From Eledone cirrhosa (Eukaryota), in assembly GCA_964016885.1 (NCBI GenBank), contig OZ024740.1, positions 386,198,001 through 386,262,000 of the forward strand: a stretch of 64,000 bases of DNA, given 5' to 3'. Shown here piece after piece: positions 12,001 to 60,870 of this stretch. Position 1 is the stretch's first letter. Each line of letters opens with the position of its first letter. The position numbers and the translations under genes were made by a program. The notes under the pieces are model-generated. The model searched no databases. It saw nothing but the letters and a program-made list of their open reading frames with translations, and was not told the DNA's origin.

Positions 12001-15000
12001 GTACTACACAGACATCTGGTTAGAATGGGAGAGGAGGGAAGCACTGGAGTGAGTGGTACTATAGAGACATCTGGTTAGAATGGCAGAGGAGGGAACCATT
12101 GGAGAGAGTGGTACTATATAGACATCTGTTTAGAATGGCAGAGGAGGGAACCACTTGAAAGATTGGTAATATATAGACATCTGGTTAGAATGGGAATGGA
12201 GGGGACCACTGGAGAGAGTGGTACTATATATCAACTGGTTAGAATGGCAGAGGAGGGAACCACTGGAGAGAGTGGTACTATATAGACATCTGGTTAGAAT
12301 GGGAGAGTAGGGAACCACTGGAGAGAGTGGTATTATATAAACATCTGGTTAGAATGGCAGAGGAGGGACCCATTGGATAGAGTGGTACTATATAGACATC
12401 TGGTTAGAATGGGAGAGTAGGGAACCACTGGAGAGAGTGGTACTATATAGACATCTGGTTAGAATGGCAGAGGAGGGAAACACTGGAGAGAGTAGTACTA
12501 CATAGACATCTGGATAGAATGGGAGAGGAGGGAACCACTGGAGAGAGTGGTACTACATAGACATCTAGTTACAATGGCAGAGGAGGGAACCACTGGAGAG
12601 ATTGGTACTACATAGACATCTGGTTAGAATGGCAGAGGAGGGAACCATTGGAGAGAGTGGTACTATATAGACATGTGGTTAGAATGGCAGAGGAGGGACC
12701 CACTGGAGAGAGTGGTACTATATAGACATCTGGTTAGGATGGGAGAGGAGGGAACCACTGGAGAGAGTGGTACTATATAGACATCTGGTTAGAATGGGAG
12801 AGGAGGGAACCACTGGTGAGAGTGGTAGTAGATAGACATCTGGTTAGAATGGGAGAGGAGTGAACCACTGGAGAGAGTGATACTACATAGACATCTGGTT
12901 AGAATGGGAGAGGAGGGAACCACTGGAGAGAGTGGTACTATATAGACATCTTGTTAGCATGGGAGAGTAGGGAACCACTGGAGAGAGAGGTACTATATAG
13001 ACATCTGGTTAGAATGGGAGAGGAGGGAACCACTGGAGAGAGTGATACTACATAGACATCTGGTTAGAATGGGAGAGGAGGGAACCACTGGAGAGAGTGG
13101 TACTATATAGACATCTGGTTAGAATGGGAGAGGAGGGAACCACTGGAGAGAGTGGTACTATATAGACATCTGGTTAGAATGACAGAGGAGGGATCCATTG
13201 GAGAGAGTGGTACTATATAGACATCTGGTTAGAATGACAGAGGAGGGATCCATTGGAGAGAGTGGTACTATATAAACATCTGGTTAGAATGGGAGAGGAG
13301 GGAACCACTGGAGAGATTGGTACTACATAGACATCTAGTTACAATGACAGAGGAGGGAACCACTGGAGAGAGTGGTACTACATAGACATCGGGTTAGAAT
13401 GGCAGAGGAGGGAACCACTTGAAAGATTGGTAATATATAGACATCTGGTTAGAATGGGAATGGAGGGGACCACTGGAGAGAGTGGTACAATATATCATCT
13501 GGTTAGAATGGCAGAGGAGGGAACCACTGGAGAGAGTGGTACTATATAGACATCTGGTTAGAATGGGAGAGTAGGGAACCACTGGAGAGAGTGGTACTAT
13601 ATAAACATCTGGTTAGAATGGCAGAGGAGGGACCCATTGGAGAGAGTGGTACTATATAGACATCTGGTTAGAATGGGAGAGTAGGGAACGACTGGAGAGA
13701 GTGGTACTATATAGACATCTGGTTAGAATGGCAGAGGAGGGAACCACTGGAGAGAGTGGTACTACACAGACATCTGGTTAGAATGGGAGAGGAGGGAACT
13801 ACTGGAGAGAGTGGTACTATATAAACATCTGGTTAGAATGGCAGAGGAGGGAACCACTTGATAGAGTGGTACTACATAGACATCTGGTTAGAATGGGAGT
13901 GGAGGGAACCACTGGAGAGAGTGGTACTATATAGACATCTGGTTAGAATGGCACAGGAGGGAAGCACTGGAGAGAGTGGTACTATATAGACATCTGGTTA
14001 GAATGGGAGAACAGGGAACCACTGGAGAGAGTGGTACTACATAGACATCTGGTTAGAATGGCAGAGGAGGGAACCACTGGAGAGAGTGATACTACACAGA
14101 CATCTGGTTAGAATGGGAGAGTAGGGAACCGCTGCAGAGAGTGGTACTATATAGACATCTGGTTAGAATGGCAGTTGAGGGAACCACTGGAGAGAGTGGT
14201 ACTACATAGACATCTGGTTAGAATGGCAGAGGAGGTAACCACTGGAGAGAGTGGTACTATATAGACATCTGGTTAGAATGGCAGTTGTGGGAACCACTGG
14301 AGAGATTGGTACTACATAGACATCTAGTTACAATGGCAGAAGAGGCAACCACTGGAGAGAGTGGTACTATATAGACATCTGGTTAGAATGGGAGAGTAGG
14401 GAACCACTGGAGAGAGTGGTACTATATAAACATCTGGTTAGAATGGCAGAGGAGGGACCCATTGGAGAGAGTGGTACTATATAGACATCTGGTTAGAATG
14501 GGAGAGTAGGGAACCACTGGAGGGAGTGGCACTATATAGACATCTGGTTAGAATGGCAGAGGAGGGAAACACTGGAGAGAGTAGTACTACATAGACATCT
14601 GGATAGAATGGGAGAGGAGGGAACCACTGGAGAGAGTGGTACTATATAGACATCTGGTTAGAATGGCAGTTGAGGGAACCACTGGAGAGAGTGGTACTAC
14701 ACAGACATCTGGTTAGAATGGCAGAGGAGGGAACCATTGGAGAGAGTGGTACTATATAGACATCTGGTTAGAATGGCAGAGGAGGGAACCACTGGAGAGA
14801 GTGGTACTACACAGACATCTGGTTAGAATGGGAGAGGAGGGAAGCACTGGAGTGAGTGGTACTATAGAGACATCTGGTTAGAATGACAGAGGAGGGAACC
14901 ACTGGAGAGATTGGTACTACATAGACAACTAGTTACAATGGCAGAAGAGGGAACCACTGGAGAGATTGGTACTACATAGACATCTGGTTAGAATGGCAGA

Positions 15001-17475
15001 GGAGGGAACCATTGGAGAGAGTGGTACTATATAGACATCTGGTTAGAATGGGAGAGTAGGGAACCACTGCAGAGAGTGGTACTATATAGACATCTGGTTA
15101 GAATGGCAGAGGAGGGAAACACTGGAGAGAGTAGTACTACATAGACATCTGGATAGAATGGGAGAGGAGGGAACCACTGGAGAGAGTGGTACTATATAGA
15201 CATCTGGTTAGAATGGCAGTTGAGGGAACCACTGGAGAGAGTGGTACTACATAGACATCTGGTTAGAATGGCAGAGGAGGTAACCACTGGAGAGAGTGGT
15301 ACTATATATACATCCGGTTAGAATGGCAGTTGAGGGAACCACTGGAGAGAGTGGTACTACACAGACATCTGGTTAGAATGGGAGAGGAGGGAAGCACTGG
15401 AGTGAGTGGTACTATAGAGACATCTGGTTAGAATGGGAGAGTAGGGAACCACTGGAGAGAGTGGTACTATATAAACATCTGGTTAGAATGGCAGAGGAGG
15501 GACCCATTGGAGAGAGTGGTACTATATAGACATCTGGTTAGAATGGGAGAGTAGGGAACCACTGCAGAGAGTGGTACTATATAGACATCTGGTTAGAATG
15601 GGAGAGTAGGGAACCACTGCAGAGAGTGGTACTATATAGACATCTGGTTAGAATGGCAGAGGAGGGAAACACTGGAGAGAGTAGTACTACATAGACATCT
15701 GGATAGAATGGGAGAGGAGGGAACCACTGGAGAGAGTGGTACTATATAGACATCTGGTTAGAATGGCAGTTGAGGGAACCACTGGAGAGAGTGGTACTAC
15801 ATAGACATCTGGTTAGAATGGCAGAGGAGGTAACCACTGGAGAGAGTGGTACTATATTTACATCTGGTTAGAATGGCAGTTGAGGGAACCACTGGAGAGA
15901 GTGGTACTACACAGACATCTGGTTAGAATGGGAGAGGAGGGAAGCACTGGAGTGAGTGGTACTATAGAGACATCTGGTTAGAATGACAGAGGAGGGAACC
16001 ACTGGAGAGATTGGTACTACATAGACATCTAGTTACAATGGCAGAAGAGGGAACCACTGGAGAGATTGGTACTACATAGACATCTGGTTAGAATGGCAGA
16101 GGAGGGAACCACTGCAGAGAGTGGTACTATATACACATCTGGTTAGAATTGGAGAGGAGGAAACCACTGGAGAGAGTGGTACTATATAGACATCTGGTTA
16201 GGATGGGAGAGGAGGGAACCACTGGAGAGAGTAGTACTACATAGACATCTGATTAGAATGGTAGAAGAGGGAACCACTGGAGAGAGTAGTACTATATAGA
16301 CATCTGGTTAGAATGGCAGAGGAGGGACCCACTGGAGAGAGTGGTACTACATAGACATCTTGTTAGGATGGGAGAGGAGGGAACCACTGGAGAGAGTGGT
16401 ACTATATAGACATCTGGTTAGAATGGCAGAGGAACGAACCACTGGAGAGAGTGGTACTACACAGACATCTGGTTAGGATGGGAGAGGAGGGAACCACTGG
16501 AGAGAGTGGTAGTATATAGACATCTGGTTAGAATGGGAGAGGAGGGAACCACTGGAGAGAGTGGTACTATATAGACATCTTGTTAGCATGGGAGAGGAGG
16601 GAACCACTGGAGAGAGTGGTACTATATAGATATCTGGTTAGAATGGGAGAGGAGGGAACCACTGGAGAGAGTGGTACTACATAGACATCTGGTTAGCATG
16701 GGAGAGGAGGGAACCACTGGAGAGAGTGTTACTATATAGACATCTTGTTAGCATGGGAGAGGAGGGAACCACTGGAGAGAGTGGTACTACATAGACATCT
16801 TGTTAGCATGGGAGAGGAGGGAACCACTGGAGAGAGTAGTACTATATAGACATCTTGTTAGAATGGGAGAGGAGGGAACCACTTGAGAGAGTGGTACTAT
16901 ATAGACATCTGGTTAGAATGGGAGAGGAGTGAACCACTGGAGAGAGTGATACTACATAGACATCGGGTTAGAATGGCAGAGGAGGCAACCACTTGATAGA
17001 GTGGTACTACACAGACATCTGGTTAGAATGGCAGAGGAGGCAACCACTGGAGAGAATGGTACTATATAGACATCTGGTTAGAATGGCAGAGGAGGGAACC
17101 ACTGGAGAGAGTGGTACTACACAGACATCTGGTTAGAATGGCAGATGAGGGAACCACTGGAAAGATTGGTAATATATAGACATCTGGTTAGAATGAGAGA
17201 GGAGGGAACCACTGGAGAGAGTGGTACTACATAGACATCTGGTTAGAATGGCAGAGGAGGGAACCACTGGAGAGAGTGGTACTACACAGACATCTGGTTA
17301 GAATGGCAGATGAGGGAACCACTGGAAAGATTGGTAATATATAGACATCTGGTTAGAATGAGAGAGGAGGGAACCACTTGAGAGAGTGGTACTACATAGA
17401 CATCTGGTTAGAATGGCAGAGGAGGGAACCACTGGAGAGAGTGGTACTATATAGTCATCTGCTTAGAATGGCAGA
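1..17475. repeat. 55-bp tandem satellite, about 318 monomers, open at the window's left edge
   Basis: Monomer AACCACTGGAGAGAGTGGTACTAYATAGACATCTGGTTAGAATGGSAGAGGAGGG recurs at 1, 56, 111... and ends at ...GCTTAGAATGGCAGA (~17475). Occasional 54-bp variants shift the phase. Confidence 0.99.
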
Positions 17476-17518
17476 ATATGTATGTATATATGTATACGTA
17501 TATATGTATATATATGTG

Positions 17519-30220: not shown

Positions 30221-33190
30221 GTTTATCTCGGGTTCAATCGGGGGTAACCACAGTAAGTAAGGTACTCAATACATAGCAGTTCTGGTCCTGTAGAAGCCAT
30301 TTCTCTCTCTCTATATATATATATATTTTCTTTTACCTGTTCCATCCATCATGCTGTTCCACATTCTATCTCCAGCCTGTTTTGGCTGGCCATTGGTGTA
30401 AGAGGGAGTTCGTTGCTGCTGCCCTTAGGTTACCTTCGTACCGTGCAATGGGCTCATCCGGGATCCTGGATAGCAGGGAGTCGAGATGTTTCTTGAAAAC
30501 ATCCACGTCCACACCATGCAGATCTCTCAAATTTCTTGGCAGCTTTTTGAAGAGTTGAGGGCCTTTCAAACCCAGGCTATTACAATATCTGCTCCTTATT
30601 CTAGATGTGGAAGACGGGACCTTTGGCACCACAGTGACGTCCTGTTCGGGGGTTGGTCCAACTCTCAATGCCAAAGTTTCGTCCAGGATTTTCCATATGT
30701 ATATCACTGCATATCTCTCCCGTCTTCGTTCCAAGGAGTAGTTTCAGTCCTTTTAGCCTCTCCCAGTAGCTCATCTCCTTCATCGTGGCAATTCTCTTGG
30801 TGTAGCTTCGTTGGATTGGCTCCAGCTCCGTGGTTAGTTTGATACTATGGAGTGACCACAGTTGGGAGCAATAGTCCAGGAGGTTTAGGGCAAATGTCCT
30901 CCATAGTATCAACATGGTCTCTCGGTCTCTTGTACGGAAAGTCCTCAAGATCCAGCCAGCGAGTCGCTTGCACGTTGTCGCCACCCTCATGATGTGCGAA
31001 GAAAAAGATGCATCATCGCTCATGTCTATCCCCAAATCTCGTATTGATTTTGACACGGGGATTTCGATCCCTCCTGGGTCGGTGAGGCTGTGTTATATTG
31101 TCTTTGTGTTTGCAGATTGCTATTGTAGGGCTTGAAGTTTTCCAAGATTAAACTGCATCTTGTTGTCCTCAGCCCATTTGTATATAGCATCCAGATATTG
31201 CTGTAAAAGGGCATCATCAGCCGGATTTTTTATTGCTTGTGCTACCTTTGTGTCATCAGCATAGCTAGTGAGGGATGTTGTATGTACTACAGAGGGCATG
31301 TCTGAGAGAACCACCAAAAACAGTAGTGGTCCCAAGACTGTGCCCTGGGTTACCCCACTTATTATTGATGTTTCTTTTGAGAGGGCCCCATTGGCTGCAA
31401 CTGTCTGGCTTCTGTCTTTTAAGAAACCATGCAGCCACTCACCTACTTTTCCAGTTATGCCGAGTGCGTGTAGTTTGTGACATATCATTCCCTGGTCGAC
31501 CTTCGCAAAGTCAAGATATATCACGTCCACATGTGGGCTGTCCAGCAGTTGTTTCAGTACCCAGTCATAGTGTTGTAACAGCTGTGTAAGGCAGCTTCTT
31601 CCTGAGCGAAAGCCATGCTGTGTGCTAGTTAGGCGGTCATTTTCCTCGAGCAGCTGAGTTTATTCTAATTTCGTTTATGGCAGATTCCTCGAGCAGCTGA
31701 GTTTATTCTAATTTCGTTTATGGCAGATATCCCATCTTCCGCCGTTATGTCTAAGTGGTGGTGGTCACCATTTCTTCGTGGGGTGTTGTGGCATCAAAGA
31801 AATCCTCTGGCTTTGTTATCTGCATGTGCCTCAATGGGGGTGTGAACACACTTTTGTACTGTTCATTCAGTATTTCACTTATCTCTTGGAGATCCTTGGT
31901 TAATGAACCATCTTTATGGAAGAGTGACCAAATCATGCAGTGTACCGAGGCAGTCTCTTTTGCAAAGAAGGCCTAAGGGTTTGTTTTAATATTTTCTATG
32001 GCCCTGGCTTCTGTCTCTGCCCTCTCCTTCTCATGGAAAAGTTTTGAGTGCAGTTTCAATTTCAAGTAGTGCCCGTTTCAGATAGGGTTCCTTCTTGTTT
32101 TTTCTGTTGTGCATTTAACTGGTTTGAGATCTTAGTTCTTCATCTCATAAGGAATTTCCGGTATCTGGGAATAAAAAATTTATGTCCGTTGGTCTATTTC
32201 TCCGGGACAAACTTATGGCATATGGTTTCTATTGTTGTCATGAAATGTTGAAAATGTGTGTTGGTGTCTTGTGTGGTGATGTCGCTCCAGTTTTGCTTCC
32301 GGATCTCTTTCTTGATCTTTTTCCAATTAGGTTTCTGAAAGTTTAGGCTGGATAAATTCCAGGAGTTTCTTAATGGTTGCGTGTCTCTGATGACTCTCTC
32401 AGACCACATAACATTAGTTCTACTAATTTATGATCGTTGGTGTCACCTTTACATTTTGGATGAGCACTACGTTGTTTGTAAAGCAGAGATCCAGGACATT
32501 CTCGCCTCTTGTTGGGAGGAGTACTGCTTGTTCCATGAACAGCCAGTGTGTGAAGGCCAACAGGGGCTCTGTCTGTCCCTGTCCGAGTGATGTCATTCCA
32601 GGGAGGAGGTGGCCCTCAGGCCATCTGACTTTTGGTAGGTTAAAGTCTCCCAGCAGCAGGATGTTGAGACCCTGGTCCAGTTCGTCAAAGACTTCTATCC
32701 TTCTGAGGCTATCCTCAAATTTACCTTCATGACTAGGGGCATCGGGTGGCCGATATGTGACACATATTACCGTTTTTAGTTGCTTCATATCTATTATCAG
32801 TGTGTCACAGACTGAGTTTGAATGTGTCAATAGTACATTGGGTGTGACATCTTCACGGATGTACAAAGCAATCCCACCATGAGTTCTCTCCTTCCTGTCT
32901 GAGCGAAAAAAAGTTCATTTTGATATATGTATTTACGCATCTACTATCCTGCTTGTCAGGTGCGTTTCGGTTAGAGCCAGACATATTGCTTGACTGCTTA
33001 TGGCTAAGTTCTCAGATAGGGAATTTTACTCATGTTAGTGGGTTTCATCAGACCTCTGCCATTCAACAGCAGCACTGGTGTGACATTTGGGATGTCAGCA
33101 ATGGCTGTCGGTGTGGTACCTGGCATTGTGTAAGTCAACAGGTTAAATTTATTCATATTCACTGCTATATACATTTCGGTGATAACCATT
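30221..33190 (-). mobile_element. CR1/L2-group LINE ORF2 remnant (APE endonuclease plus RT), frameshifted
   Basis: APE motifs LLNGRGL, YRPP, LLGDFNLP, LDLCFTN, and RT motifs QHGFRSGRSCLTQLL, DVIYLDFAK, GVTQGTVLGPLLF, YADDTK, DLGI, LDYCSQLW, ERRRERY. Confidence 0.93.
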
Positions 33191-35920: not shown

Positions 35921-36807
35921 TGGTAAACGGAATAGAAAATGCTGACAAATTGTTCACAGTGAAAAATAGTTTAATTAGGAATAAATGAGAATTAGTAATT
36001 GTATTGGTTAGTATTCAGTTTTGGTTTTAAGTTTTACCGGTTGCGCATTTCTAAATGCTTTTCAAAAATAATTTTGAGATAGAGCGTCCGTGATGTTTGC
36101 TCTGATCTGATTAGTTTTGGGAATTCTACCTGTTTTTATGTTAAATTAAAATACGGGAATACAGGAAAATACCACTGAGTGAACACATTGATACCTGTGC
36201 CGCAAAAATCATCCCAACTTCAGAATCTTTCCCCTTTACAAATTTAAAGATAATGCCACCCACACCCAGCGCATCAGCAAGGAATCTTACTTTATTAACA
36301 AATACGGACCCCGTCTAAACACTTCTCCCTAAGACGAACCCACAACATACACACGTCAACATACATACCTACATCAGCACACATCTCTACCCACATATAA
36401 ACACAATGACATACGTAAACACACATGTTCTATGGTGCAACACAAATATATATATATATATATATATATAGTGAATATATGTATGTATATATATATATAG
36501 TAAATATCATTTCACACCTTTTATTGTTAAGGTTTTTGATGTTCTATTGAGAGAATCGATTTTACCTAAAATATCGAATGTACACCATTTTACCAGGAAA
36601 AAAATAATGGTCCACCCACACACACACACACACACATACACATACACTAACATACAAAGAGACTTATACACACACACACGCACACACACATACACACACA
36701 CTTCTCCGTACAAGACAAGAGCTGAAAAATATCTTTTAACATGTTAAAATATCCCCCACTCACAGACACATTCCTACTGACCATCCCTCTACCACGAATT
36801 ACTCTGC

Positions 36808-36860
<53 letters not shown>

Positions 36861-37349
36861 TCTTAATAGGCATTTGAACTGTCAACAGGCTGCGGTTCGC
36901 GCACACATCCCTGCTAACCATTATCACAACAACGAACACTTTACTACTACTACTACACACACACACATATTTGTTGTGAAAGAGTCATTTCTCAGTCTTG
37001 GCGCAAAATCAATTTTTTACATTCACATGACCTCTACCGACCAATCAAAATTTTTTGACCACAAGAATTTTTGCAACACGAATTGGCGCAAAAACCAATT
37101 TTAATAGCGCTGGAGCCATTTTTTTTAAACATAGAAACAGGTAGAATTCCCAAAACTAATCAGATCAGAGCAAACATCCCGGACGCTCTATCTCAAAATT
37201 ATTTTTGAAAAGCATTTAGAAATGTGCAACCGGTAAAACTTAAAACCAAAACTGAATACTAACCAATACAATTACTAATTCTCATTTATTCCTAATTAAA
37301 CTATTTTTCACTGAACAATTTGTCAGCGTTTTCTATTCCGTTTACCAAT
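35919..37349 (+). mobile_element. Truncated Penelope-like element (Neptune-type endonuclease end) preceded by an inverted copy of its own 3' end
   Basis: 36150-36320 translates REYRKIPLSEHIDTCA..NFRIFPLYKF..KESYFINKYGPRLN (GIY-YIG C-terminus). 35919-36142 is the reverse complement of 37128-37349. Confidence 0.8.
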
Positions 37350-37395
37350 ATATAATAACTTGTGTGTTACACCTCTATTCTTTTAACTATATATA

Positions 37396-38009
37396 TATTC
37401 TTCTTTGAGCTAATATTATTATTATTACTGTGAACTGCCGAATACTCTTAATTCTGATCCTAGTATACTTAACGAGCTCCAAATTGTTGAGCTAATAAAT
37501 TCGAATGGTTGGGCTGCTCTCTCTAGCATTTTCCCCAATCCATGAGAACCGTTATTGGATGCAAATAACACGTGATTTCACCCTACCCTGTGCAGCGTGT
37601 ATATTAGATTTCTCTCTATTCATGAGGTTAGATGTGTAGTAAACAGAATCCACATTTGCTGACTGAAGAAACTGTGGCTGTTAAACTGCACATTCCTGTG
37701 GCGAAACGAACTTAATTCGTATCAGCAAACTTATAGTTATAAGGTTAGTAATTTAAAATCTACTTCAGAGATTTGATTCTGACTTAGGTTATTTTCTATT
37801 TAATTGCTAAACATGTAGATATTGTTTTCTATACAGTAACGGTCAAAATCACTAGTAATAATCCTTTACACACATTTCACTGTGTAACACACTTCTATTT
37901 GTGTAATATATTTGTATCTGAGCTCAGAAGAAAATTCTCTATTCTTCTTTGAGCTAATAATATTATTATTATTACTGTGAACTGCGGAATACTCTTAATT
38001 CCGATCCTA

Positions 38010-38014
<5 letters not shown>
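37396..38014 (+). mobile_element. 544-bp non-coding unit with ~72-bp terminal direct repeats and one hammerhead motif (retrozyme or solo-pLTR-like)
   Basis: TATTCTTCTTTGAGCTAATA...GATCCTAGTATA at 37396-37467 and 37940-38014. Both ends abut (TA)n. Confidence 0.75.
37655..37729 (+). ncRNA. Type I hammerhead ribozyme motif (family A)
   Basis: Stem I TTTGCTGA/TCAGCAAA (8 bp); core CTGAAGA (37663-69); GAAA (37703-06); stem III ACGAA-cttaa-TTCGT; cleavage triplet GTA. Stem II is weak. Confidence 0.8.
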
Positions 38015-38852: not shown

Positions 38853-39394
38853 AATAAGTATATATATAAATAAATATATATATAAATATATATATATATA
38901 TAAATAAATAAATATATATATAAATAAATATATATATAAATAAATATATATATATATATATATAAATATATAAATAAATATATATATATATAAATATATA
39001 AATAAATATATACATAAATATATACAAATAAATATATGATAGGGATTAACACTAATACAAGTATGTAAGTGTTTGTATTGCAAATGACCAAGTTAGCTAG
39101 ATTGTAAAAGACTGTTTGAGTTTATAACTATATATAGTATAAATATATATAAATATATAAATAAATGTATAAATAAATATAAATATAAATATATATATAA
39201 ATATATATAAATATATATATAAATATATATAAATATAAATATATATATAAATATAAATATAAATATATATATAAATATAAATATATATACATATATATAA
39301 ATATATATATATATAAATATATGCAAAAGTTTTATTTAAAATTGTTGGGTTACAACGAATAAATATTTGTATAAATAAATATATAAATATATAT

Positions 39395-39481
39395 ATAGGA
39401 ACGAGTAGGACCCCGACGGCTGAGCTCAAGCCGTTTTAAAACGGCTTGAGCACAGCCGTTTGGGGTCCTACTCATTCCTAT
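39395..39481. repeat. 87-bp near-perfect spacerless palindrome, copy 1
   Basis: ATAGGAACGAGTAGGACCCCGACGGCTGAGCTCAAGCCGTTTT|AAAACGGCTTGAGCACAGCCGTTTGGGGTCCTACTCATTCCTAT. Confidence 0.95.
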
Positions 39482-40079
39482 TACCCACTCTACTACCCGA
39501 AGTATTGAGTACTTTGGTGCGTTATGGTCCACCTGGTTCCTTAACACATTTCCTTCGTTAATATATATATAAATATATATATAAATAAATATATATATAT
39601 ATATATCAATAAATAAATATATATATATATATATCAATAAATAAATATATATATATATATACAATAAATATATATATCAATAAATATATATATATATATA
39701 TCAATAAATATATATATATATATATAAATAAATAAATATATATATATAAATAAATATATATATATATATATAAATAAATATATATATATATAAATAAATA
39801 TATATATATATAAATAAATATATATATATATATAAATAAATATATATATATATATAAATATATATATATATATTTATTTATATATATTTTATATATATTT
39901 ATTTATACAATAAGCTAACTGCTGCCAAAACATTCTCTCTTCACAATCTCTACTAGTCTGACAGTCTTAAACCCTAAGACTCCCTCCACCTTACTCACTT
40001 CCCTCTTCCCCTTCTCTTCCTACCTCCTTCTTTATCTTTTATCTAGTGTATGAAATATTTTCATATCATTCTAATACAA

Positions 40080-40196
40080 AGGTCTGATGACATGGTGTGT
40101 TGGCTTACAGTGTACTTTCGGTTTTTGATAATATTTGTGTATTATTCAAATAGCGAGGTATAGGTAACTCATACACTATAGAAACAATTGTTACCT
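40080..40196 (+). ncRNA. Type I hammerhead ribozyme motif (family D), copy 1, inside the ~340-bp island 39903-40240
   Basis: Stem I AGGT/ACCT; CTGATGA (40084-90); stem II ATGGTGTGT/ATACACTAT with a long loop; GAAA (40181-84); palindromic stem III AACAATTGTT; triplet GTT. Confidence 0.7.
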
Positions 40197-40282
40197 AATA
40201 AATTCTATATACCCGCATTTCCATTTCGTAAATTTTTTCTATATATATATATTTATATATATATATATATATAAATAAATAA

Positions 40283-40313
<31 letters not shown>

Positions 40314-40354
40314 TAAATATATATTTATATATATATATATATATCAATAAATAA

Positions 40355-40415
<61 letters not shown>

Positions 40416-40874
40416 TAAATATATATATATATATAAATAAATAAATATATATATAAATAAATAAATAAATATATATATATATAAATAAATATATATATAA
40501 ATAAATATATATATATATAAATAAATATATATATAAATAAATATATATATATATAAATATATATATATATAATAAATAAATATATATATATATAAATAAA
40601 TATATATATATATAAATAAATAAATATATATATAAATAAATAAATATATATATATATATATAAATAAATATATATATATAAATAAATATATATAAATAAA
40701 TATATATATATAAATAAATATATATATATAAATAAATATATATATATAAATAAATATATATATATAAATAAATATATATAAATAAATATATATATATAAA
40801 TAAATATATATATATAAATAAATATATATATATAAATAAATATATATATATAAATAAATATATATATATAAATA

Positions 40875-40926
<52 letters not shown>

Positions 40927-40954
40927 AATATATAAATATAAATATATATATATA

Positions 40955-40986
<32 letters not shown>

Positions 40987-41023
40987 AATATATAAATATA
41001 TAAATATATATATATATATAAAT

Positions 41024-41054
<31 letters not shown>

Positions 41055-41089
41055 AATATATATATATATAAATATATATATATATAAAT

Positions 41090-41190
<101 letters not shown>

Positions 41191-41246
41191 TATATATATA
41201 TAAATATATATATATATAAATATATATATATAAGTATATATATATA

Positions 41247-41320
<74 letters not shown>

Positions 41321-41321
41321 T

Positions 41322-42097
41322 ATATGAGAGACGTAAAATAAGAAAATTATAAAATTAACTTACTAAAATTTCACTCCCAACTAATTAGTTTCTGAAATGG
41401 AATAAATATACTTCCGAAGAAGATATAGAGAATCATTTCGTCGTCAGGGAAGTCTATTCTCAGCTAAGTTTCCAGGCAAAGCGTGGACTCTGGAGACTTA
41501 TACAAAAATAATTCAGTGGATAGAAAATAGCAAAGCGTGGACTGAATTCCTAGCCATTGCGAAAATCACTCCCTACTGCGTCGGTGGCAAATTCAAAAAG
41601 AATCAATCACGTGACATCGAGGTTATTCAGTGGAAAGTGGTTTGTTAAGAAGACTAGCGGCCTGCCTGCTACCATAGCAGCAGTCTTGGCCAATATTGCT
41701 CGAAAGATAATTTGGAGATAATTATAAAGAATTAATATATCTAGTAACATATATATACATACAGATGCATATCAATGCTAGCAAATATATAGGTTTTGTC
41801 TTAGTAACTTTGTGGTTCAATGCATGGGGTTGCAGAACAAAAATATGAGAGACGTAAAATGATTCTCTATATCTTCTTCGGAAAGTATATTTATTCCATT
41901 TCAGAAACTAATTAGTTGGGAGTGAAATTTTAGTAAGTAAGTTAATTTTATAATTTTCTTGTTTTACGTCTCTCATATTATTGTTCTGCAACCCCATGCA
42001 TTGAACCACAAAGTTACTAAGACAAACCTATATATTTGCTAGCATTGATATGCATCTGTATGTATATATATATGTTACTAGATATATTAATTCTTTA
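41322..42097 (-). mobile_element. 521-bp terminally redundant hammerhead element (family E) plus an inverted junction-spanning partial copy
   Basis: ATATGAGAGACGTAAAAT at 41322 and 41843. 41857-42097 is the reverse complement of the monomer end (41722-41860) running on into the monomer start (to ~41437). Confidence 0.8.
41373..41453 (-). ncRNA. Type I hammerhead ribozyme motif (family E), copy 1
   Basis: Minus strand: ACTTCC-CTGACGA-cGAAATG...CATTTCa-GAAA-CTAATTAG-TT-GGGAGT. Stem I ACTTCC/GGGAGT, stem II GAAATG/CATTTC, palindromic stem III AACTAATTAGTT. Confidence 0.75.
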
Positions 42098-42453
42098 TAT
42101 AAATATATATAAATATATATATAAATATATAAATAAATAAATATATATATAAATATATAAATAAATATATATATATAAATAAATATATAAATAAATATAT
42201 ATATAAATAAATATATATATAAATATATATATAAATAAATATATATATAAATATATATATATAAATAAATATATAAATAAATATATATATAAATAAATAT
42301 ATATATATAAATATATATAAATAAATATATATATAAATAAATATATATATAAATAAATATACTATATATATAAATAAATATATATATAAATAAATATATA
42401 TATAAATAAATATATATATAAATAAATATATATATAAATAAATATATATATAA

Positions 42454-42492
<39 letters not shown>

Positions 42493-43010
42493 TATATATA
42501 TAAATATATATATAAATATATATATATAAATATATATATAAATATATATATATAAATATATATATAAATATATATATATATATAAATAAGTATATATATA
42601 AATAAATATATATATAAATATATATATATATAAATAAATAAATATATAATAAATAAATATATATATAAATAAATATATATATATATATATATAAATATAT
42701 AAATAAATATATATATATATATAAATATATAAATAAATATATACATAAATATATACAAATAAATATATGATAGGGATTAACACTAATACAAGTATATAAG
42801 TGTTTGTATTGCAAATGACCAAGTTAGCTAGATTGTAAAAGACTGTTTGAGTTTATAACTATATATAGTATAAATATATATAAATATATAAATAAATGTA
42901 TAAATAAATATAAATATAAATATATATATAAATATATATAAATATATATATAAATATATATAAATATAAATATAAATATAAATATAAATATAAATATATA
43001 TATAAATATA

Positions 43011-43044
<34 letters not shown>

Positions 43045-43139
43045 AATATATATATATATAAATATATGCAAAAGTTTTATTTAAAATTGTTGGGTTACAA
43101 CGAATAAATATTTGTATAAATAAATATATAAATATATAT

Positions 43140-43226
43140 ATAGGAACGAGTAGGACCCCGACGGCTGAGCTCAAGCCGTTTTAAAACGGCTTGAGCACAG
43201 CCGTTTGGGGTCCTACTCATTCCTAT
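43140..43226. repeat. 87-bp palindrome, copy 2
   Basis: Identical to 39395-39481. Confidence 0.95.
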
Positions 43227-43317
43227 TACCCACTCTACTACCCGAAGTATTGAGTACTTTGGTGCGTTATGGTCCACCTGGTTCCTTAACACATTTCCTT
43301 CGTTAATATATATATAA

Positions 43318-43353
<36 letters not shown>

Positions 43354-43676
43354 CAATAAATAAATATATATATATATATATCAATAAATAAATATATATA
43401 TATTATATCAATAAATATATATATATATATATCAATAAATAAATATATATATATCAATAAATAAATATATATATATATATATATCAATAAATAAATATAT
43501 ATATATATCAATAAATAAATATATATATATATATATCAATAAATATATATATATATCAATAAATATATATATATATATATCAATAAATATATATATATAT
43601 ATATCAATAAATAAATATATATATATATATATATAAATATATATATATAAATAAATATATATATATATATAAATAA

Positions 43677-43707
<31 letters not shown>

Positions 43708-43985
43708 TATATATATATAAATAAATATATATATATATAAATAAATATATATATATATATAAATATATATATATATATTTATTTATATATATTTTTATAT
43801 ATATTTATTTATACAATAAGCTAACTGCTGCCAAAACATTCTCTCTTCACAATCTCTACTAGTCTGACAGTCTTAAACCCTAAGACTCCCTCCACCTTAC
43901 TCACTTCCCTCTTCCCCTTCTCTTCCTACCTCCTTCTTTATCTTTTATCTAGTGTATGAAATATTTTCATATCATTCTAATACAA

Positions 43986-44102
43986 AGGTCTGATGACATG
44001 GTGTGTTGGCTTACAGTGTACTTTCGGTTTTTGATAATATTTGTGTATTATTCAAATAGCGAGGTATAGGTAACTCATACACTATAGAAACAATTGTTAC
44101 CT
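43986..44102 (+). ncRNA. Type I hammerhead motif (family D), copy 2
   Basis: Identical to 40080-40196. Confidence 0.7.
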
Positions 44103-44214
44103 AATAAATTCTATATACCCGCATTTCCATTTCGTAAATTTTTTCTATATATATATATATAAATAATATATATATATATATATATAAATAATATATATAT
44201 ATGGTATATAAATA

Positions 44215-44246
<32 letters not shown>

Positions 44247-44344
44247 AATAAATAAATATATATATATAAATAAATAAATATATATATATAAATAAATAAA
44301 TATATAATATATATATATAAATAAATAAATATATATATATAAAT

Positions 44345-44375
<31 letters not shown>

Positions 44376-45404
44376 ATATATATAAATATATATATATATT
44401 ATATATATATATTTATTTAATAATATATATATATATTAATATATATATAAATAAATATATACATATATAAATAAATATATATATATATAAATAAATATAT
44501 ATATATATAAATAAATATATATATAAATAAATATATATATATATATATAAATAAATAAATATATATATATAAATAAATAAATAAATAAATATAAATAAAT
44601 ATATATATATATAAATAAATAAATATATATATATATAAATAAAAAAAATATATATATATAAATAAATATATATATAAATAAATAAATATATATATAAATA
44701 AATATATATATATATAAATAAATATATATATATATAAATAAATATATATATATATAAATAAATATATATATATATAAATAAATATATATATATATAAATA
44801 AATATATATATATATAAATAAATATATATATATATAAATAAATATATATATATATAAATAAATATATATATATATAAATAAATATATATATAAATAAATA
44901 AATATATATATAAATAAATAAATATATATATATATATAAATATATATATATATAAATAAAATAAATATATACATATATAAATAAATAAAAATATATATAT
45001 AAATAAATATATACATATATAAATAAATATATATATATAAATAAATATATATATATATAAATAAATATATATATAAATAAATATATATATATATAAATAA
45101 ATATATATATATATATAAATAAATATATATATATATATAAATAAATATATATAAATAAATAAATATATATATATAAATAAATATATATAAATAAATAAAT
45201 ATATATATAAATAAATAAATATATATATAAATAAATAAATATATATATATATATAAATAAATATATATATATAAATAAATATATATATATAAATAAATAT
45301 ATATATAAATAAATATATATATATAAATAAATATATATATAAATAAATAAATATATATATATATAAATAAATATATATATAAATAAATAAATATATATAT
45401 AAAT

Positions 45405-45471
<67 letters not shown>

Positions 45472-45576
45472 AATAAATAAATATATATAAATAAATATAT
45501 ATATATAAATAAATATATATATATAAATAAATATATATATATATAAATATAAATATATATATATATAAATATATAT

Positions 45577-45607
<31 letters not shown>

Positions 45608-45730
45608 AATATATATATATATAAATATATATATATATAAATATATATATATAAATATATATATATAAATATATATATATAAATATATATATATAAATAT
45701 ATATATATATAAATATATATATATATAAAT

Positions 45731-45833
<103 letters not shown>

Positions 45834-45886
45834 AATATATATATATATAAATATATATATATAAATATATATTTATAAATATATAT

Positions 45887-45917
<31 letters not shown>

Positions 45918-46018
45918 AATATATATATATAAGTATATATATATAAATATATATATATATATAAATATATATGAGAGACGTAAAATAAGAAAATTATAAA
46001 TTAACTTACTAAAATTTC

Positions 46019-46100
46019 ACTCCCAACTAATTAGTTTCTGAAATGGAATAAATATACTTTCCGAAGAAGATATAGAGAATCATTTCGTCGTCAGGGAAGT
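46019..46100 (-). ncRNA. Type I hammerhead motif (family E), copy 2
   Basis: Same as 41373-41453 with one extra base in loop II. Confidence 0.75.
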
Positions 46101-46768
46101 CTATTCTCAGCTAAGTTTCCAGGCAAAGCGTGGGACTCTGGAAAACTTATACAAAAATAATTCAGTGGATAGAAATAGCAAAGCGTGGACTGAATTCCTA
46201 GCCATTGCGAAAATCACTCCCTACTGCGTCGGTGGCAAATTCAAAAAGAATCATCACGTGACATCGAGGTTATTCAGTGGAAAGTGGTTTGTTAAGAAGA
46301 CTAGCGGCCTGCCTGCTACCATAGCAGCAGTCTTGGCCAATATTGCTCGAAAGATAATTTGGAGATAATTATAAAGAATTAATATATCTAGTAACATATA
46401 TATACATACAGATGCATATCAATGCTAGCAAATATATAGGTTTGTCTTAGTAACTTTGTGGTTCAATGCATGGGGTTGCAGAACAAAAATATGAGAGACG
46501 TAAAATGATTCTCTATATCTTCTTCGGAAAGTATATTTATTCCATTTCAGAAACTAATTAGTTGGGAGTGAAATTTTAGTAAGTAAGTTAATTTTATAAT
46601 TTTCTTGTTTTACGTCTCTCATATTATTGTTCTGCAACCCCATGCAACAAAGTTACTAAGACAAATCCTATATATTTGCTAGCATTGATATGCATCTGTA
46701 TGTATATATATATGTTACTAGATATATTAATTCTTTATATAAATATATATAAATATATATAAATATAT

Positions 46769-49770: not shown

Positions 49771-51094
49771 TCATCATCATCATCATCATCAACGTTTAAC
49801 GTCCGTGTTCCACGCTTGCATGGGTTTGGACGGGGTAGTCCCACTTGAGGCAAGAGTGATTGTCTTGCTCGCATAGGACTGTCTGGCAGGTTTTCTACAG
49901 TTGGATGCCCTTCCTAACACCAACCACATTTACAGTGTGGGTCTGGGAGGTTTTTACCGTGTTGCCTACACGGCACATTACAGCGTGGACTGTGTGTTTT
50001 TTTGTCGTGACACCTACACGATCTCGTTTGTTTCGGCCCGGATGGCGCGGCCACCAACATAACTTTACATAGGACGGGGTGGTGTGGATGGGGTGGGGGT
50101 GGTGGTGGTGGGACGGGGTGTATTTTGTTAGAGATGCCTACTGGCAAGGCGGGTCTTCTCTGTTACTGAGTACCGCCAAAGGTCTCGGTCCAGTGACATT
50201 GTCTTGGAGAGGTGTAAGTGTGTGAGGTCGGAGTTTATCAGCTCGTCCCAGGTTTTTCTAGGTCTGCCTATTCCGTGGCTACCGTCTATCTTTATTGCCC
50301 TGCACTTTGTTATACAGCTATCGACTTTCATGCGCATCACGTGTCCATACCAACGTAGCCTTCTCTCGAGTAAACAACATCTGATCCCTCTTATCTCTAA
50401 TTTTTTCCTTAGTTCGTTTATGCTTTGCCGTTCACGTATATTACTGTTACACATCCAGCGGAGCATGCAAGCTTCGTTCCTCTCTAGTCTGCGTATATCC
50501 TCTGCACACAATGCCCAGGTCTCACTGCCATGCAACATTGCTGTTCGTATGCAGGCATCGTACAACCTGCCTTTCATTTTTAGGGAGAACCCTTTAGCAG
50601 CTAATAGTGGTATAAGCTCTCTGAACTTTTTCCAACCAGTTCTGACTCTAGCTACAGTACTTTCAGAGCACCCTCCCCCCACTGCTGATTTTATCGCCCA
50701 TAACGGAAGCTGTCCACTATTTCTATAGAACCCTCTGCGCAATTGAAAGAGCTAGTATTGTGTGGGCACTTGCTGCTACTTATTGCACCAGAACACCGGC
50801 CACATGTAAAATCTATGTTCTTAGTTAGCTTACCTGTGATCCCACTACATCTTTTATGCACCCATACTTTGCATTTAGGACACAAAATGGAGTTTCTACC
50901 TACGCCTTTCCTACACACCGAGCACGACCATTTCCCAGAAGGGACCGCCGCCTTGTTTTCTTTCCTACAAACTAGAACTTTGGTCTTAGCCAGGTTAATT
51001 TTAAGTCCTTTTGACTCTAGGCCGTGCTTCCATGTTTGGAATTTCTTCTCTAGCTCGGCCATTGATTCCGCTATGAGTGTCAGGTCGTCTGCGT
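49771..51094 (-). mobile_element. RTE-clade LINE 3' portion with (GAT)n tail, cut by an assembly gap
   Basis: ADDLTLIAES..GLKINLAKTK, KGRLYDACIRTAMLHGSETW, RRLRWYGHVMR, GRPRKTW; (CAT)n at 49771-49790. Confidence 0.95.
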
Positions 51095-51294
51095 NNNNNN
51101 NNNNNNNNNNNNNNNNNNNNNNNNNNNNNNNNNNNNNNNNNNNNNNNNNNNNNNNNNNNNNNNNNNNNNNNNNNNNNNNNNNNNNNNNNNNNNNNNNNNN
51201 NNNNNNNNNNNNNNNNNNNNNNNNNNNNNNNNNNNNNNNNNNNNNNNNNNNNNNNNNNNNNNNNNNNNNNNNNNNNNNNNNNNNNNNNNNNNNN
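51095..51294. other. Assembly gap (200 N)
   Basis: Run of N. Confidence 1.
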
Positions 51295-51919
51295 TATTCA
51301 ACCCATGCCAGCATAGAAGGTGGACATAAAATGAAGAAATGTGTCAAACAACAAATACATAGGCTAACCCAAGATATAGAAAACGTACATGTGGAAAGTC
51401 TGCAGTTAACGAAAGATAATAAATCAGTCAAGAAAGATACATTTATTAAACAATCCATATTCAGCTATTGAAAATATAGACATCACTTTCATTTTGAAAT
51501 TGATACACCGATATAAACAAACTAAGCAGGCTATATATGAATAAAATTGCTCTATTCACACCAGCAGATAAATTTCTCAACCTCTCACAACATAGATTCA
51601 GCCTAGACTAAATTATGCTCTTCAACCTTGGTATCAAACTCCCACTTGTAGCCGAAATATGAGCAAAACAGAAAAAAAATTGAAATGAAGCTACTACATA
51701 TACACACAGAAGATGAGTTGCCGTTTTTACACCACCCCACCCAAAAATGGCATGAAAATTTGCAGGCAGTTTATTTACCAAACCTTCTTACAGGCTTGAA
51801 ATTTGCAGTACAAACTAACACTCACAAACGTAAATGATTGTGTATGCTGAGTTGTTGGTCATGCCCCTACGTAGTCTATATGAACATTAGCAGTGCGCAC
51901 ACACACACACACATGCACA

Positions 51920-59838: not shown

Positions 59839-60574
59839 AATAAATTTAAATTTAATTAAAATTTAAATCTTCCAACATAACTTTAAATAAGAACCATATG
59901 TTAAGTTAGTATCTTAGTAATAAAATAATTAATAATTTTAGTAAATCCCTAAAAAATTCTCATTAATTGAAATAGAGTGCATTTCATTAGAAATATGGTC
60001 ACAAAATGATTAATGCTACTGAAGCTAAAATTGGTTATTATGTCCTTACTAGAACAACAAGAATAAAAAGAAAGAAGCCAAGAGAGAAATACTCTTGTAA
60101 GAAATATTTTATATCTGTACCTTTAATATTCATTACAATTTTTATTAGGACATATAACCCTAAGTGAACTCAGATAATGCATTCATGGAGTTAGTTATAA
60201 GGCATTTTTAAAATATGAATCATACCAAGGTGTTTTAAGGTAATTTTGCCTTCAGGTCTTAATAAAAAGTGCCTTCAATTGGTTTTGTTGTTTTTATCAG
60301 AAGGCTACTTTTAATCTGGTATCTCAACAATAAGACAAAAAAAAAATACAATCTTCATCCTCTACTCCACCATTAATTTTCTTGTCATATTTACACCTAA
60401 CTCTCATTTTCAGTTACTCCAAATACTTTTATAAGATTTTATTTTTAATCACTCACTTCAGACACCACTTAACATTTTCCATACCAACCAGCTCAAACTC
60501 AGCTTTGGTTCTATTAAACAAAACCAACCCTTTAACATCATTTTATGTCAAATTACTATCTTCAGAATAAAAGA

Positions 60575-60870
60575 AAATTTCACCTGCAACTCAGAAAACC
60601 TAATCTATGTGATGACAAGCTGTAAATGTTTGCAAAATCACATAGGAGAGACGAGAGTGTCATTACACAAAAGAATGACCATACTTTGCCAACAAATCCA
60701 TGTTGAAAATGTGAGACAAATCCCCTTAAGCAGCCACATTGCAATGTGTGTAGGAATGGATATATCCTACTTCATAATTTCCCCCTCAACAAATATGTCA
60801 CTCAACAACAGAATAAATATATAAAAACAATTCAAATAATTCATTAACAAATATAAACCAATATAAATAT
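60575..60870 (+). mobile_element. Penelope-like (Neptune-type) GIY-YIG endonuclease remnant
   Basis: FTCNSENLIYVMTSCKCLQNHIGET..LHKRMT..QQI..RQIPLSSHIAMC; similar to 36150-36320. Confidence 0.75.

What the first reader, a model, noticed from the sequence alone, without database searches (positions are those of the whole stretch)
41322..42097. Element E preserves a monomer-to-monomer junction, pointing to a circular or multimeric template
Seen: the 521-bp unit starts and ends with ATATGAGAGACGTAAAAT. The adjacent inverted piece (41857-42097) runs, on the opposite strand, from the unit's last ~140 bp straight through that 18-mer into its first ~100 bp. It differs slightly from the direct copy (extra CTTA, AAAC versus AAAT), so it is not a simple fold-back of the neighbouring DNA. 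The switch point has AAAT microhomology and removes the CTGACGA half of the second hammerhead. Inference: reverse transcription of a circular or concatemeric RNA with a template switch, matching the partial-tandem-plus-inverted structure known for PLE insertions.
Basis: partly seen in the sequence, partly recalled or inferred. Interest (0 to 1): 0.75.

Follow-up and report, generated by a model that had tools for sequence, protein, structure and literature searches.

The report
Two-armed hammerhead retrozyme, Penelope footprint
This is one of roughly two thousand insertions of a 521-base protein-free repeat that carries a predicted self-cutting RNA; its copies sit back-to-back in TA repeats and start at two fixed points, which suggests that a Penelope-type transposon enzyme likely copies one small RNA, probably a circle, from both ends of the cut DNA.

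Summary
It is one of two fixed outer ends (A, B; 121 nt apart) of a 521-bp non-coding repeat with about 1,900 estimated insertions, mostly flush with (TA)n. In a positional sample, 84 of 91 arms start at A or B, so starts are not permuted. Head-to-head insertions pair one A arm with one B arm in 95 of 96 cases: the known Penelope 'tail' footprint, also seen in an ORF-bearing Neptune-like element here (11 of 11). The minus strand carries one type I hammerhead per unit, with two compensatory pairs; predicted cleavage is at 41379/41378, which both arms cross. Support for a re-read monomer template comes from the family: 71 of 213 arms exceed one period (maximum 4.87), and successive rounds and both arms look identical at birth (odd-one-out 34/31/23). 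A covalent circle is favoured but unproven, and expression was not tested. Verdict: new member of the animal non-LTR retrozyme / non-autonomous Penelope kind. The scan earlier noted sister families with this layout elsewhere in this genome.

The parts
40240..41321 (.). Left (TA)n/(TAAA)n tract; inferred insertion target
   Evidence: Sequence. Nearly all A and B starts in the sampled loci are flush with (TA)n.
41322..41339 (+).
   Evidence: 46 of 91 arms start here; 881 exact TA-flush 42-mer matches genome-wide.
41322..41860 (+). Direct arm, 1.03 periods (unit 521 to 17); cDNA orientation, RNA sense is the minus strand
41373..41453 (-). Type I hammerhead. Helix I 41453-41448 / 41378-41373; CUGACGA 41447-41441; long helix II; GAAA 41392-41389; palindromic helix III; predicted cleavage after GUU between 41379 and 41378
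   Evidence: The MFE fold gives the three-way junction (z 0.08, so stability alone is no evidence). Helix II has compensatory pairs AU 93/GC 39 of 135 and UA 98/GC 35 of 137. Core bases vary little.
41723..41790 (-). Internal copy of site B (41723) with an upstream RNA hairpin (41735-41790)
   Evidence: Fold z -3.1, 2 of 200 shuffles as stable; role inferred
41843..41860 (+). Second pass through site A (start of round 2), not a terminal repeat
   Evidence: Inner arm ends are scattered over the whole unit.
41857..41860 (.). Head-to-head joint with 4-nt AAAT microhomology
   Evidence: In the family, 37 of 56 joints without inserted bases have 2 nt or more of overlap, against 17% for random joins.
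41857..42099 (-). Inverted arm, 0.45 period (unit 401-521, then 1-116). Carries the 3' half of the hammerhead, with the predicted cleavage site at 41917/41918
41979..42099 (-). 121-nt 'tail' between fixed outer end B (42099) and site A
   Evidence: 38 of 91 arms start at B; A+B pairing in 95 of 96 head-to-head insertions.
42100..42760 (.). Right (TA)n tract
45969..46739 (+). Near-identical duplicate of the whole composite, part of a local tandem duplication (39013-42093 vs 42744-46733); not an independent insertion

Best explanation
The locus is one insertion of a high-copy, non-coding 521-bp repeat with fixed outer ends and a predicted hammerhead ribozyme, likely mobilised in trans by a Penelope-like (PLE) RT-endonuclease that would cut (TA)n DNA on both strands and would prime two cDNAs on one RNA, one at site A and one at site B, the RNA being probably a monomeric circle read round more than once. 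SHOWN: copy number, two fixed outer ends, strict A+B pairing, variable inner ends, arms up to 4.87 periods, microhomology joints, a covarying hammerhead, and both arms and all rounds sharing one source sequence. INFERRED: transcription from the minus strand, self-cleavage at 41379/41378, ligation to a circle, two-primer target-primed RT, joining of the two cDNA ends by microhomology, and the identity of the partner PLE. Odds: non-autonomous PLE passenger about 0.9; two primers on one template about 0.75; monomer re-read (circle or end-to-end jumps) about 0.7; covalent circle about 0.55.
For: Fixed ends: 84 of 91 arms start at A or B in an unbiased positional sample of 57 loci. Pairing: 28 of 29 A+B in that set on re-mapping; 51 of 51 in an A-anchored set of 75 loci (could only reveal AA); 16 of 16 in a B-anchored set of 40 loci (could only reveal BB). 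The same rule holds in 11 of 11 scorable composites of an ORF-bearing PLE with intact 777-aa frames in this genome, whose two starts lie 36-38 nt apart. This matches the in vitro result of two internal RT start sites, AT-rich targets and both strands cut and extended (PMC11167929). Template longer than one unit: 71 of 213 arms exceed 1 period, 17 exceed 1.5, 7 exceed 2. One source per insertion: the partner arm is among the closest 10% of arms in 35 of 39 pairs (median distance 0.018 vs 0.078). Star test at 3,717 triple sites: earlier round odd 31, later round odd 34, other arm odd 23. The register version (34/31/26 at 3,666 sites) disfavours a source whose rounds differed by 0.5% (P about 0.03) or 1% (P about 2e-5). 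Recurrent round-to-round differences show no shared direction (37 same, 37 opposite). Crossing of the predicted cleavage site is clean: 1 indel event in 1,115 nt at unit 57-60. Match density in the first 93.5 Mb extrapolates to about 3,200 against 3,365 observed, leaving little room for large master arrays (arithmetic). No ORF over 34 codons.
Against: No RNA-level evidence was obtained, so cleavage and circularity are untested. Arm termination is not memoryless: A arms stop more often in round 2 (10 of 36 vs 9 of 121 at unit 38-58, P=0.003; 11 of 15 vs 31 of 90 at 138-400, P=0.009). A finite linear template predicts this, though strand displacement on a circle could too. A+B pairing is not specific to circles, since the ORF-bearing PLE shows it. 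The hammerhead has a short palindromic helix III and an extra A before GAAA, 40 of 136 copies vary in helix II, and in vitro PLE insertion did not need hammerhead cleavage (PMC11167929). 8 of 9 predicted Xenopus retrozyme dimers did not cleave in vitro (10.64898/2026.07.22.740005). Of 347 round-to-round differences, 45 have a minor allele above 5% elsewhere, about twice the uniform expectation; this may be hypermutable sites or some template mixing. Unit 54 and 56 carry 10 and 22 single-base deletions in the G run next to the cleavage site; these look like subfamily alleles but I did not test that. No autonomous partner with extended homology was found. Gene conversion between neighbouring copies could mimic the star pattern.
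Confidence: 0.6

Rival explanations
1. Same two-site PLE insertion, but the template is an uncleaved linear multimer read through from young, homogeneous genomic tandem copies; no circle is involved.
For: Stops rise in round 2 for A arms. Unprocessed RNA was the dominant substrate in vitro and no reads ended at the hammerhead site in the anole PLE (PMC11167929). Dimer-type hammerheads cleave weakly (PMC4209133). Genomic arrays up to 4.87 periods exist.
Against: Rounds are as alike as the two arms, and there are no shared directional round differences (37/37). Sub-lineages have diverged by several percent while rounds within an insertion have not, which needs a homogenising step each generation. 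No sign of large source arrays (arithmetic).
Confidence: 0.2
2. The template is the cleaved linear monomer, and the RT jumps end-to-end each time it reaches the 5' end (pseudo-circular).
For: Stops are enriched just before the cleavage site (unit 38-58: 0.62 per 100 nt vs 0.16-0.26 in most other zones and 0.42 at 99-137). Short templated inserts at some joints show that the RT can jump (L085, L170, L216, L283). This model gives the same star pattern.
Against: Only 2 of 213 arms end at unit 55-56, and the peak lies about 10 nt short. No insertions were seen at unit 48-65 in about 280 passes, whereas jumps usually leave scars.
Confidence: 0.13
3. The inverted arm comes from self-priming or fold-back (for example on an antisense template, as proposed for rotifer PLEs), i.e. 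one cDNA with a template switch.
For: 9 of 92 joints are near-symmetric (both arms end within 10 nt) against 4.8 expected (P about 0.045). Palindromic joints were read this way in PMC3846280. A shared source sequence is also expected under this model.
Against: 83 of 92 joints are asymmetric. A fold-back has no reason to end exactly at the other fixed site, flush with (TA)n, in 95 of 96 cases.
Confidence: 0.05
4. Assembly or chimeric-read artefact.
For: The composite lies in kilobase (TA)n tracts inside a near-identical local duplication that may itself be an assembly error.
Against: The same architecture, with different inner ends and private mutations, occurs at about 100 sampled loci. The arms differ by substitutions that both local copies share.
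Confidence: 0.02

Closest known systems
Animal non-LTR retrozymes (PMC7229834, parts 2-4 of 6 read; bioRxiv 10.64898/2026.07.22.740005, parts 1-3 of 5 read)
   Same: Non-coding, low-GC head-to-tail repeats with one type I hammerhead per unit and a short palindromic helix III; co-occur with PLEs; circle-templated, PLE-driven insertion is the proposed life cycle.
   Different: The unit (521 nt) is above the 170-400 nt of the first paper but inside the 51-972 bp range of the preprint. Copies here are mostly dispersed 0.1-2.5-period two-armed insertions, not long arrays. The parts I read do not describe fixed RT starts or inverted arms for retrozymes (supplements not seen). Circles are shown there and untested here.
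Endonuclease-containing Penelope-like elements: pLTR, tail and inverted 5' copy (PMC8557442 and PMC3846280, passages read; PMC11167929, parts 1-2 of 4 read)
   Same: Partial tandems, an adjacent inverted 5'-truncated copy, a tail on one end only, (TA)n targets, microhomology joints, two internal RT start sites.
   Different: No ORF. The tail is 121 nt rather than 30-40. The whole unit, not only a pLTR, is repeated.
[quoted passage not shown]
   Same: (TA)n targets, two fixed starts, A+B pairing 11 of 11, start motifs resembling the element's A (7 of 11 after ATAT; background 1.3%) and, in older subfamilies, B (by eye).
   Different: No extended homology. The order of the A-like and B-like motifs is reversed. 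The young B motif matches only 4 of 10 (background 31%). A candidate partner only.
Minimal PLE hammerheads (PMC4209133, parts 1-2 of 4 read)
   Same: Long helix II, unpaired base between positions 9 and 10.1, G10.1-C11.1 pair, palindromic helix III implying dimer cleavage.
   Different: Has a 3-bp helix III with a 4-nt loop and an extra A between C11.1 and G12. No Rfam family reached its gathering score in the window.

Membership tests
Animal non-LTR retrozyme | Type I hammerhead in each repeat unit | tested here: met
   Core boxes conserved in more than 120 passes; three helices; two compensatory pairs.
Animal non-LTR retrozyme | Head-to-tail tandem copies with two or more hammerheads | tested here: met
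   19 of 84 arms cross unit 93/94, in the middle of the hammerhead, at least twice; maximum 4.87 periods. Not met at this particular locus, which has one full hammerhead and one half.
Animal non-LTR retrozyme | Non-coding; no LTR/PBS/PPT | tested here: met
   Longest Met-ORF 34 codons. The apparent terminal repeat is not a fixed feature. PBS and PPT were not searched specifically.
Animal non-LTR retrozyme | Self-cleavage of the RNA | not testable with these tools
   Needs an in vitro assay.
Animal non-LTR retrozyme | Expressed as monomeric linear and circular RNA | not testable with these tools
   No RNA run was available to lay (see Tried and rejected).
Penelope-like element insertion (non-autonomous) | Fixed 3' ends with an optional tail on one end | tested here: met
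   84 of 91 arms start at two sites; A+B in 95 of 96 pairs.
Penelope-like element insertion (non-autonomous) | Variable 5' truncation, partial tandems, adjacent inverted copy | tested here: met
   28 of 57 loci are head-to-head; inner ends are spread over the unit.
Penelope-like element insertion (non-autonomous) | AT-rich or microsatellite target | tested here: met
   Outer flanks. Target-site duplications cannot be read in (TA)n.
Penelope-like element insertion (non-autonomous) | Homology to the 3' end or pLTR of an autonomous PLE | tested here: inconclusive
   Only short start-motif likeness to the L129 family. 30 of 150 listed matches from 8,938 endonuclease candidates were inspected.
Autonomous Penelope-like element | RT plus GIY-YIG ORF | tested here: not met
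   No ORF in the unit.

The most novel reading that the evidence does not exclude
These insertions are a genomic record of rolling-circle, two-primer retrotransposition. A PLE dimer loads one hammerhead-made RNA circle at two fixed sites, primes from both strands of a (TA)n break, and runs round the circle by strand displacement. One mechanism would then explain PLE tails, inverted 5' copies and tandem arrays, and would show that animal retrozyme circles are the actual insertion templates.
Probability: 0.4. Interest if true: 0.75.

Novelty: new member of a known kind. Interest (0 to 1): 0.5.

Why it matters
How Penelope-like elements make their tandem and inverted insertions, and whether retrozyme circles are their templates, are stated as open or hypothetical in the papers read (PMC8557442, PMC4209133, PMC7229834). 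This family gives counts that constrain the mechanism: one A end plus one B end in 95 of 96 two-armed insertions, and one source sequence for both arms and all rounds. It also supplies a short RNA substrate and an intact candidate enzyme from the same genome for a direct in vitro test. The parts are known and the circle model was proposed in 2014 and 2020, so this is supporting evidence rather than a new kind of system.

Tried and rejected
Rfam scan of the window: no family at gathering score. My first hammerhead reading (no helix II, cleavage at unit 93/94) was dropped for a register that pairs in 88-99% of copies at 15 of 16 tested pairs (the outermost helix I pair 74%) and covaries. An apparent left end at unit 476 was a BLAST splitting artefact. 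The first 30 loci were biased to full-length copies and are left out of the start, end and pairing counts (they gave 13 of 13 A+B); they are included in the sequence-sharing tests. Sequencing runs: no RNA holder listed. The three contig sets (one sample) did not cover 41842-41873, even the multi-copy 18-mer, so the joint is neither supported nor contradicted. Partner search: no homology beyond AT repeats to 30 PLE endonuclease loci; one B arm joined to a decayed PLE-like frame (L095, read by eye) looks like a nested insertion, a single case. The idea that the RT lengthens (TA)n at the primed end was not supported (14 vs 12 among 26 loci with TA on both sides). A direct genome-wide count of tandem pairs was not obtained. 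Dropped rows: arms under 80% identity (older subfamilies), L090 (two insertions), L002 (local duplicate), L184 (fetched on the wrong side, replaced by L237); simple-repeat columns were masked. In the B-anchored set, 24 of 40 loci had no scorable pair, including some with very short or non-standard partner arms. Literature: 7 searches showed no paper that quantifies A+B pairing or round-to-round identity. Subscription papers and bioRxiv supplements were not searchable and no supplements were read, so older PLE reviews may hold such a model.

Full report
1. Observation. The 18-mer lies at 41322 and 41843, giving a 521-bp period. The direct arm (41322-41860) is 1.03 periods. The inverted arm (41857-42099) aligns without a break to unit 401-521 then 1-116 of a dimer. 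The arms overlap by AAAT and differ by two substitutions and four small indels. A second, near-identical composite at 45969-46739 belongs to a local tandem duplication and is not independent.

2. The family. A 17-mer of the unit has 3,365 exact matches genome-wide and the reversed control has 0. The first 100 matches by position fall into 57 loci, which scales to about 1,900 loci (an estimate, exact matches only). I mapped those 57 loci, 75 further loci anchored on end A and 40 anchored on end B. Outer ends are fixed: of 91 arms, 46 start at the 18-mer (site A), 38 start 121 nt earlier (site B, unit 401) and 7 elsewhere, some of these being short inserts at joints. Nearly all are flush with (TA)n. 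Inner ends are spread over the unit. About half of the loci (28 of 57) are head-to-head pairs like this one. Pairs are A+B in 28 of 29, 51 of 51 and 16 of 16 cases in the three sets; the anchored sets can reveal only AA or only BB pairs respectively. Joints show microhomology of 2 nt or more in 37 of 56 cases without inserted bases, against 17% for random joins, and 20 of 76 joints carry inserted bases. So the 18-mer is a fixed start, not a monomer end, and the copies are not circularly permuted.

3. The ribozyme. On the minus strand, 41453-41373 folds as a type I hammerhead: helix I, CUGACGA, a bulged C, a 6-bp helix II with a long extension, an extra A, GAAA, a palindromic helix III, and GUU before the predicted cut at 41379/41378. 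Folding energy alone is not significant (z 0.08). However, helix II has two compensatory pairs (AU 93/GC 39; UA 98/GC 35) and the core is nearly invariant. The bulge, the G-C closing pair and the palindromic helix III match PLE hammerheads described in PMC4209133 (parts 1-2 of 4 read). There is one per unit. Rfam did not detect it. A cleaved linear monomer would let an A-primed cDNA run only 56 nt and a B-primed cDNA 177 nt, and both arms at this locus run past that point.

4. What template? Of 213 arms, 71 exceed one period, 17 exceed 1.5 and 7 exceed 2; the longest is 4.87. Within an insertion, both arms share lineage variants: the partner is among the closest 10% of arms in 35 of 39 pairs. 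In three-way comparisons the odd base falls about equally on the earlier round, the later round and the other arm (31, 34, 23). The register version (34, 31, 26) disfavours a source whose rounds already differed by 0.5% or more. Round-to-round differences that recur between loci have no preferred direction (37 vs 37). Sub-lineages differ by several percent while rounds within an insertion do not, so a monomer-length sequence is probably re-read at each insertion (inference). Against a simple circle: A arms stop more often in round 2 than in round 1, and stops cluster just before the cleavage site. Finite templates, end-to-end jumps, or strand displacement by an RT without RNase H (recalled property of PLE RTs, not checked) could each explain this. 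Gene conversion is not excluded. I put a covalent circle at about 0.55.

5. The enzyme. A decayed PLE endonuclease frame in the window led to an abundant ORF-bearing PLE with intact 777-aa frames. It also sits in (TA)n, has two fixed starts 36-38 nt apart, and pairs them A+B in 11 of 11 scorable composites. The pairing rule is thus a property of PLE integration and not evidence for a circle. Its start motifs resemble the element's A and, in older subfamilies, B, but in reversed order and with modest statistics, and there is no extended homology. It is a candidate partner only.

6. Comparison with what is known. The architecture (partial tandem, inverted 5' copy, tail on one end, TA targets) is the described PLE footprint (PMC8557442 and PMC3846280, passages). 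Two internal RT starts with both strands extended were shown in vitro (PMC11167929). Non-LTR retrozymes as circular RNAs, and PLEs as their likely movers, are proposed in PMC7229834 and 10.64898/2026.07.22.740005; more-than-unit copying of circles was proposed in PMC4209133. The element works like a PLE insertion and meets the sequence-level retrozyme criteria; cleavage and circular RNA are untested. Differences are the 121-nt tail and the dispersed two-armed layout. Seven literature searches found no quantification of the pairing rule or of round identity, with the limits stated in Tried and rejected.

7. Earlier scan notes. The scan had already described 310-, 316-, 318-, 467- and 530-nt hammerhead families with this layout in the same genome, two of them with the same both-ends, one-circle reading. 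A look-up by sequence found no note on this family, and none near this place. These notes are unchecked and are not independent support; my sharing tests were planned before I saw them (note).

8. Verdict. A real feature; first reading partly supported; new member of a known kind; interest 0.5, or 0.75 if the circle-templated two-primer model is confirmed.

Noticed in passing
L126, L127, L132, L136, L244-L268 (L129-family PLE, outer B ends): 12 of 19 distinct outer B ends carry 6-30 AG units where internal copies of the site have 2 (44 of 44 rows classed internal). This may be telomerase-like stuttering of the RT at initiation, or a preference for (TA)n(GA)n targets. One older-subfamily arm of the 521-bp element (L046) shows the same.
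   Followed up: partly
window 39013-42093 and 42744-46733: Near-identical tandem duplication (100% over 332 bp; element copies differ mostly by homopolymer indels): a very young duplication or an assembly artefact.
   Followed up: partly
window 43141-43303 and about 39400-39558; also L129:6240-6450: Another small TA-flanked repeat built as a long inverted repeat with an ~80-nt extension on one side, possibly a further two-armed PLE passenger.
   Followed up: no
window 36163-38011: 3' part of a PLE (endonuclease-end match at 36163-36320), a hammerhead-like motif on the plus strand at about 37655-37727, and a repeated end segment (37396-37463 vs 37940-38010) flush with the (TA)n tract.
   Followed up: no
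window 60435-60860: Decayed PLE GIY-YIG-like endonuclease frame, 53% identical to the L129 protein over 104 aa.
   Followed up: partly
L013, L026, L046, L075, L078, L087, L298, L302-L308: Older subfamilies of the element (70-86% identical) keep the same two starts and the palindromic helix III, with further changes in helix II.
   Followed up: partly
L036, L218, L297, L298: Four arms begin at unit 502-503; a possible minor third start or later truncation.
   Followed up: no
L129:780-860 (minus strand): The ORF-bearing PLE has a hammerhead-like motif that appears to have the U3-A8 core variant (read by eye; not modelled).
   Followed up: no
window 1-17500: Long stretch with constant GC of about 0.46 and strong GC skew (about 0.44), probably a satellite array.
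   Followed up: no
window 30366-32914 and 50128-51471: Fragments that look like LINE-type RT/endonuclease frames; an assembly gap (run of N) lies near 51 kb.
   Followed up: no
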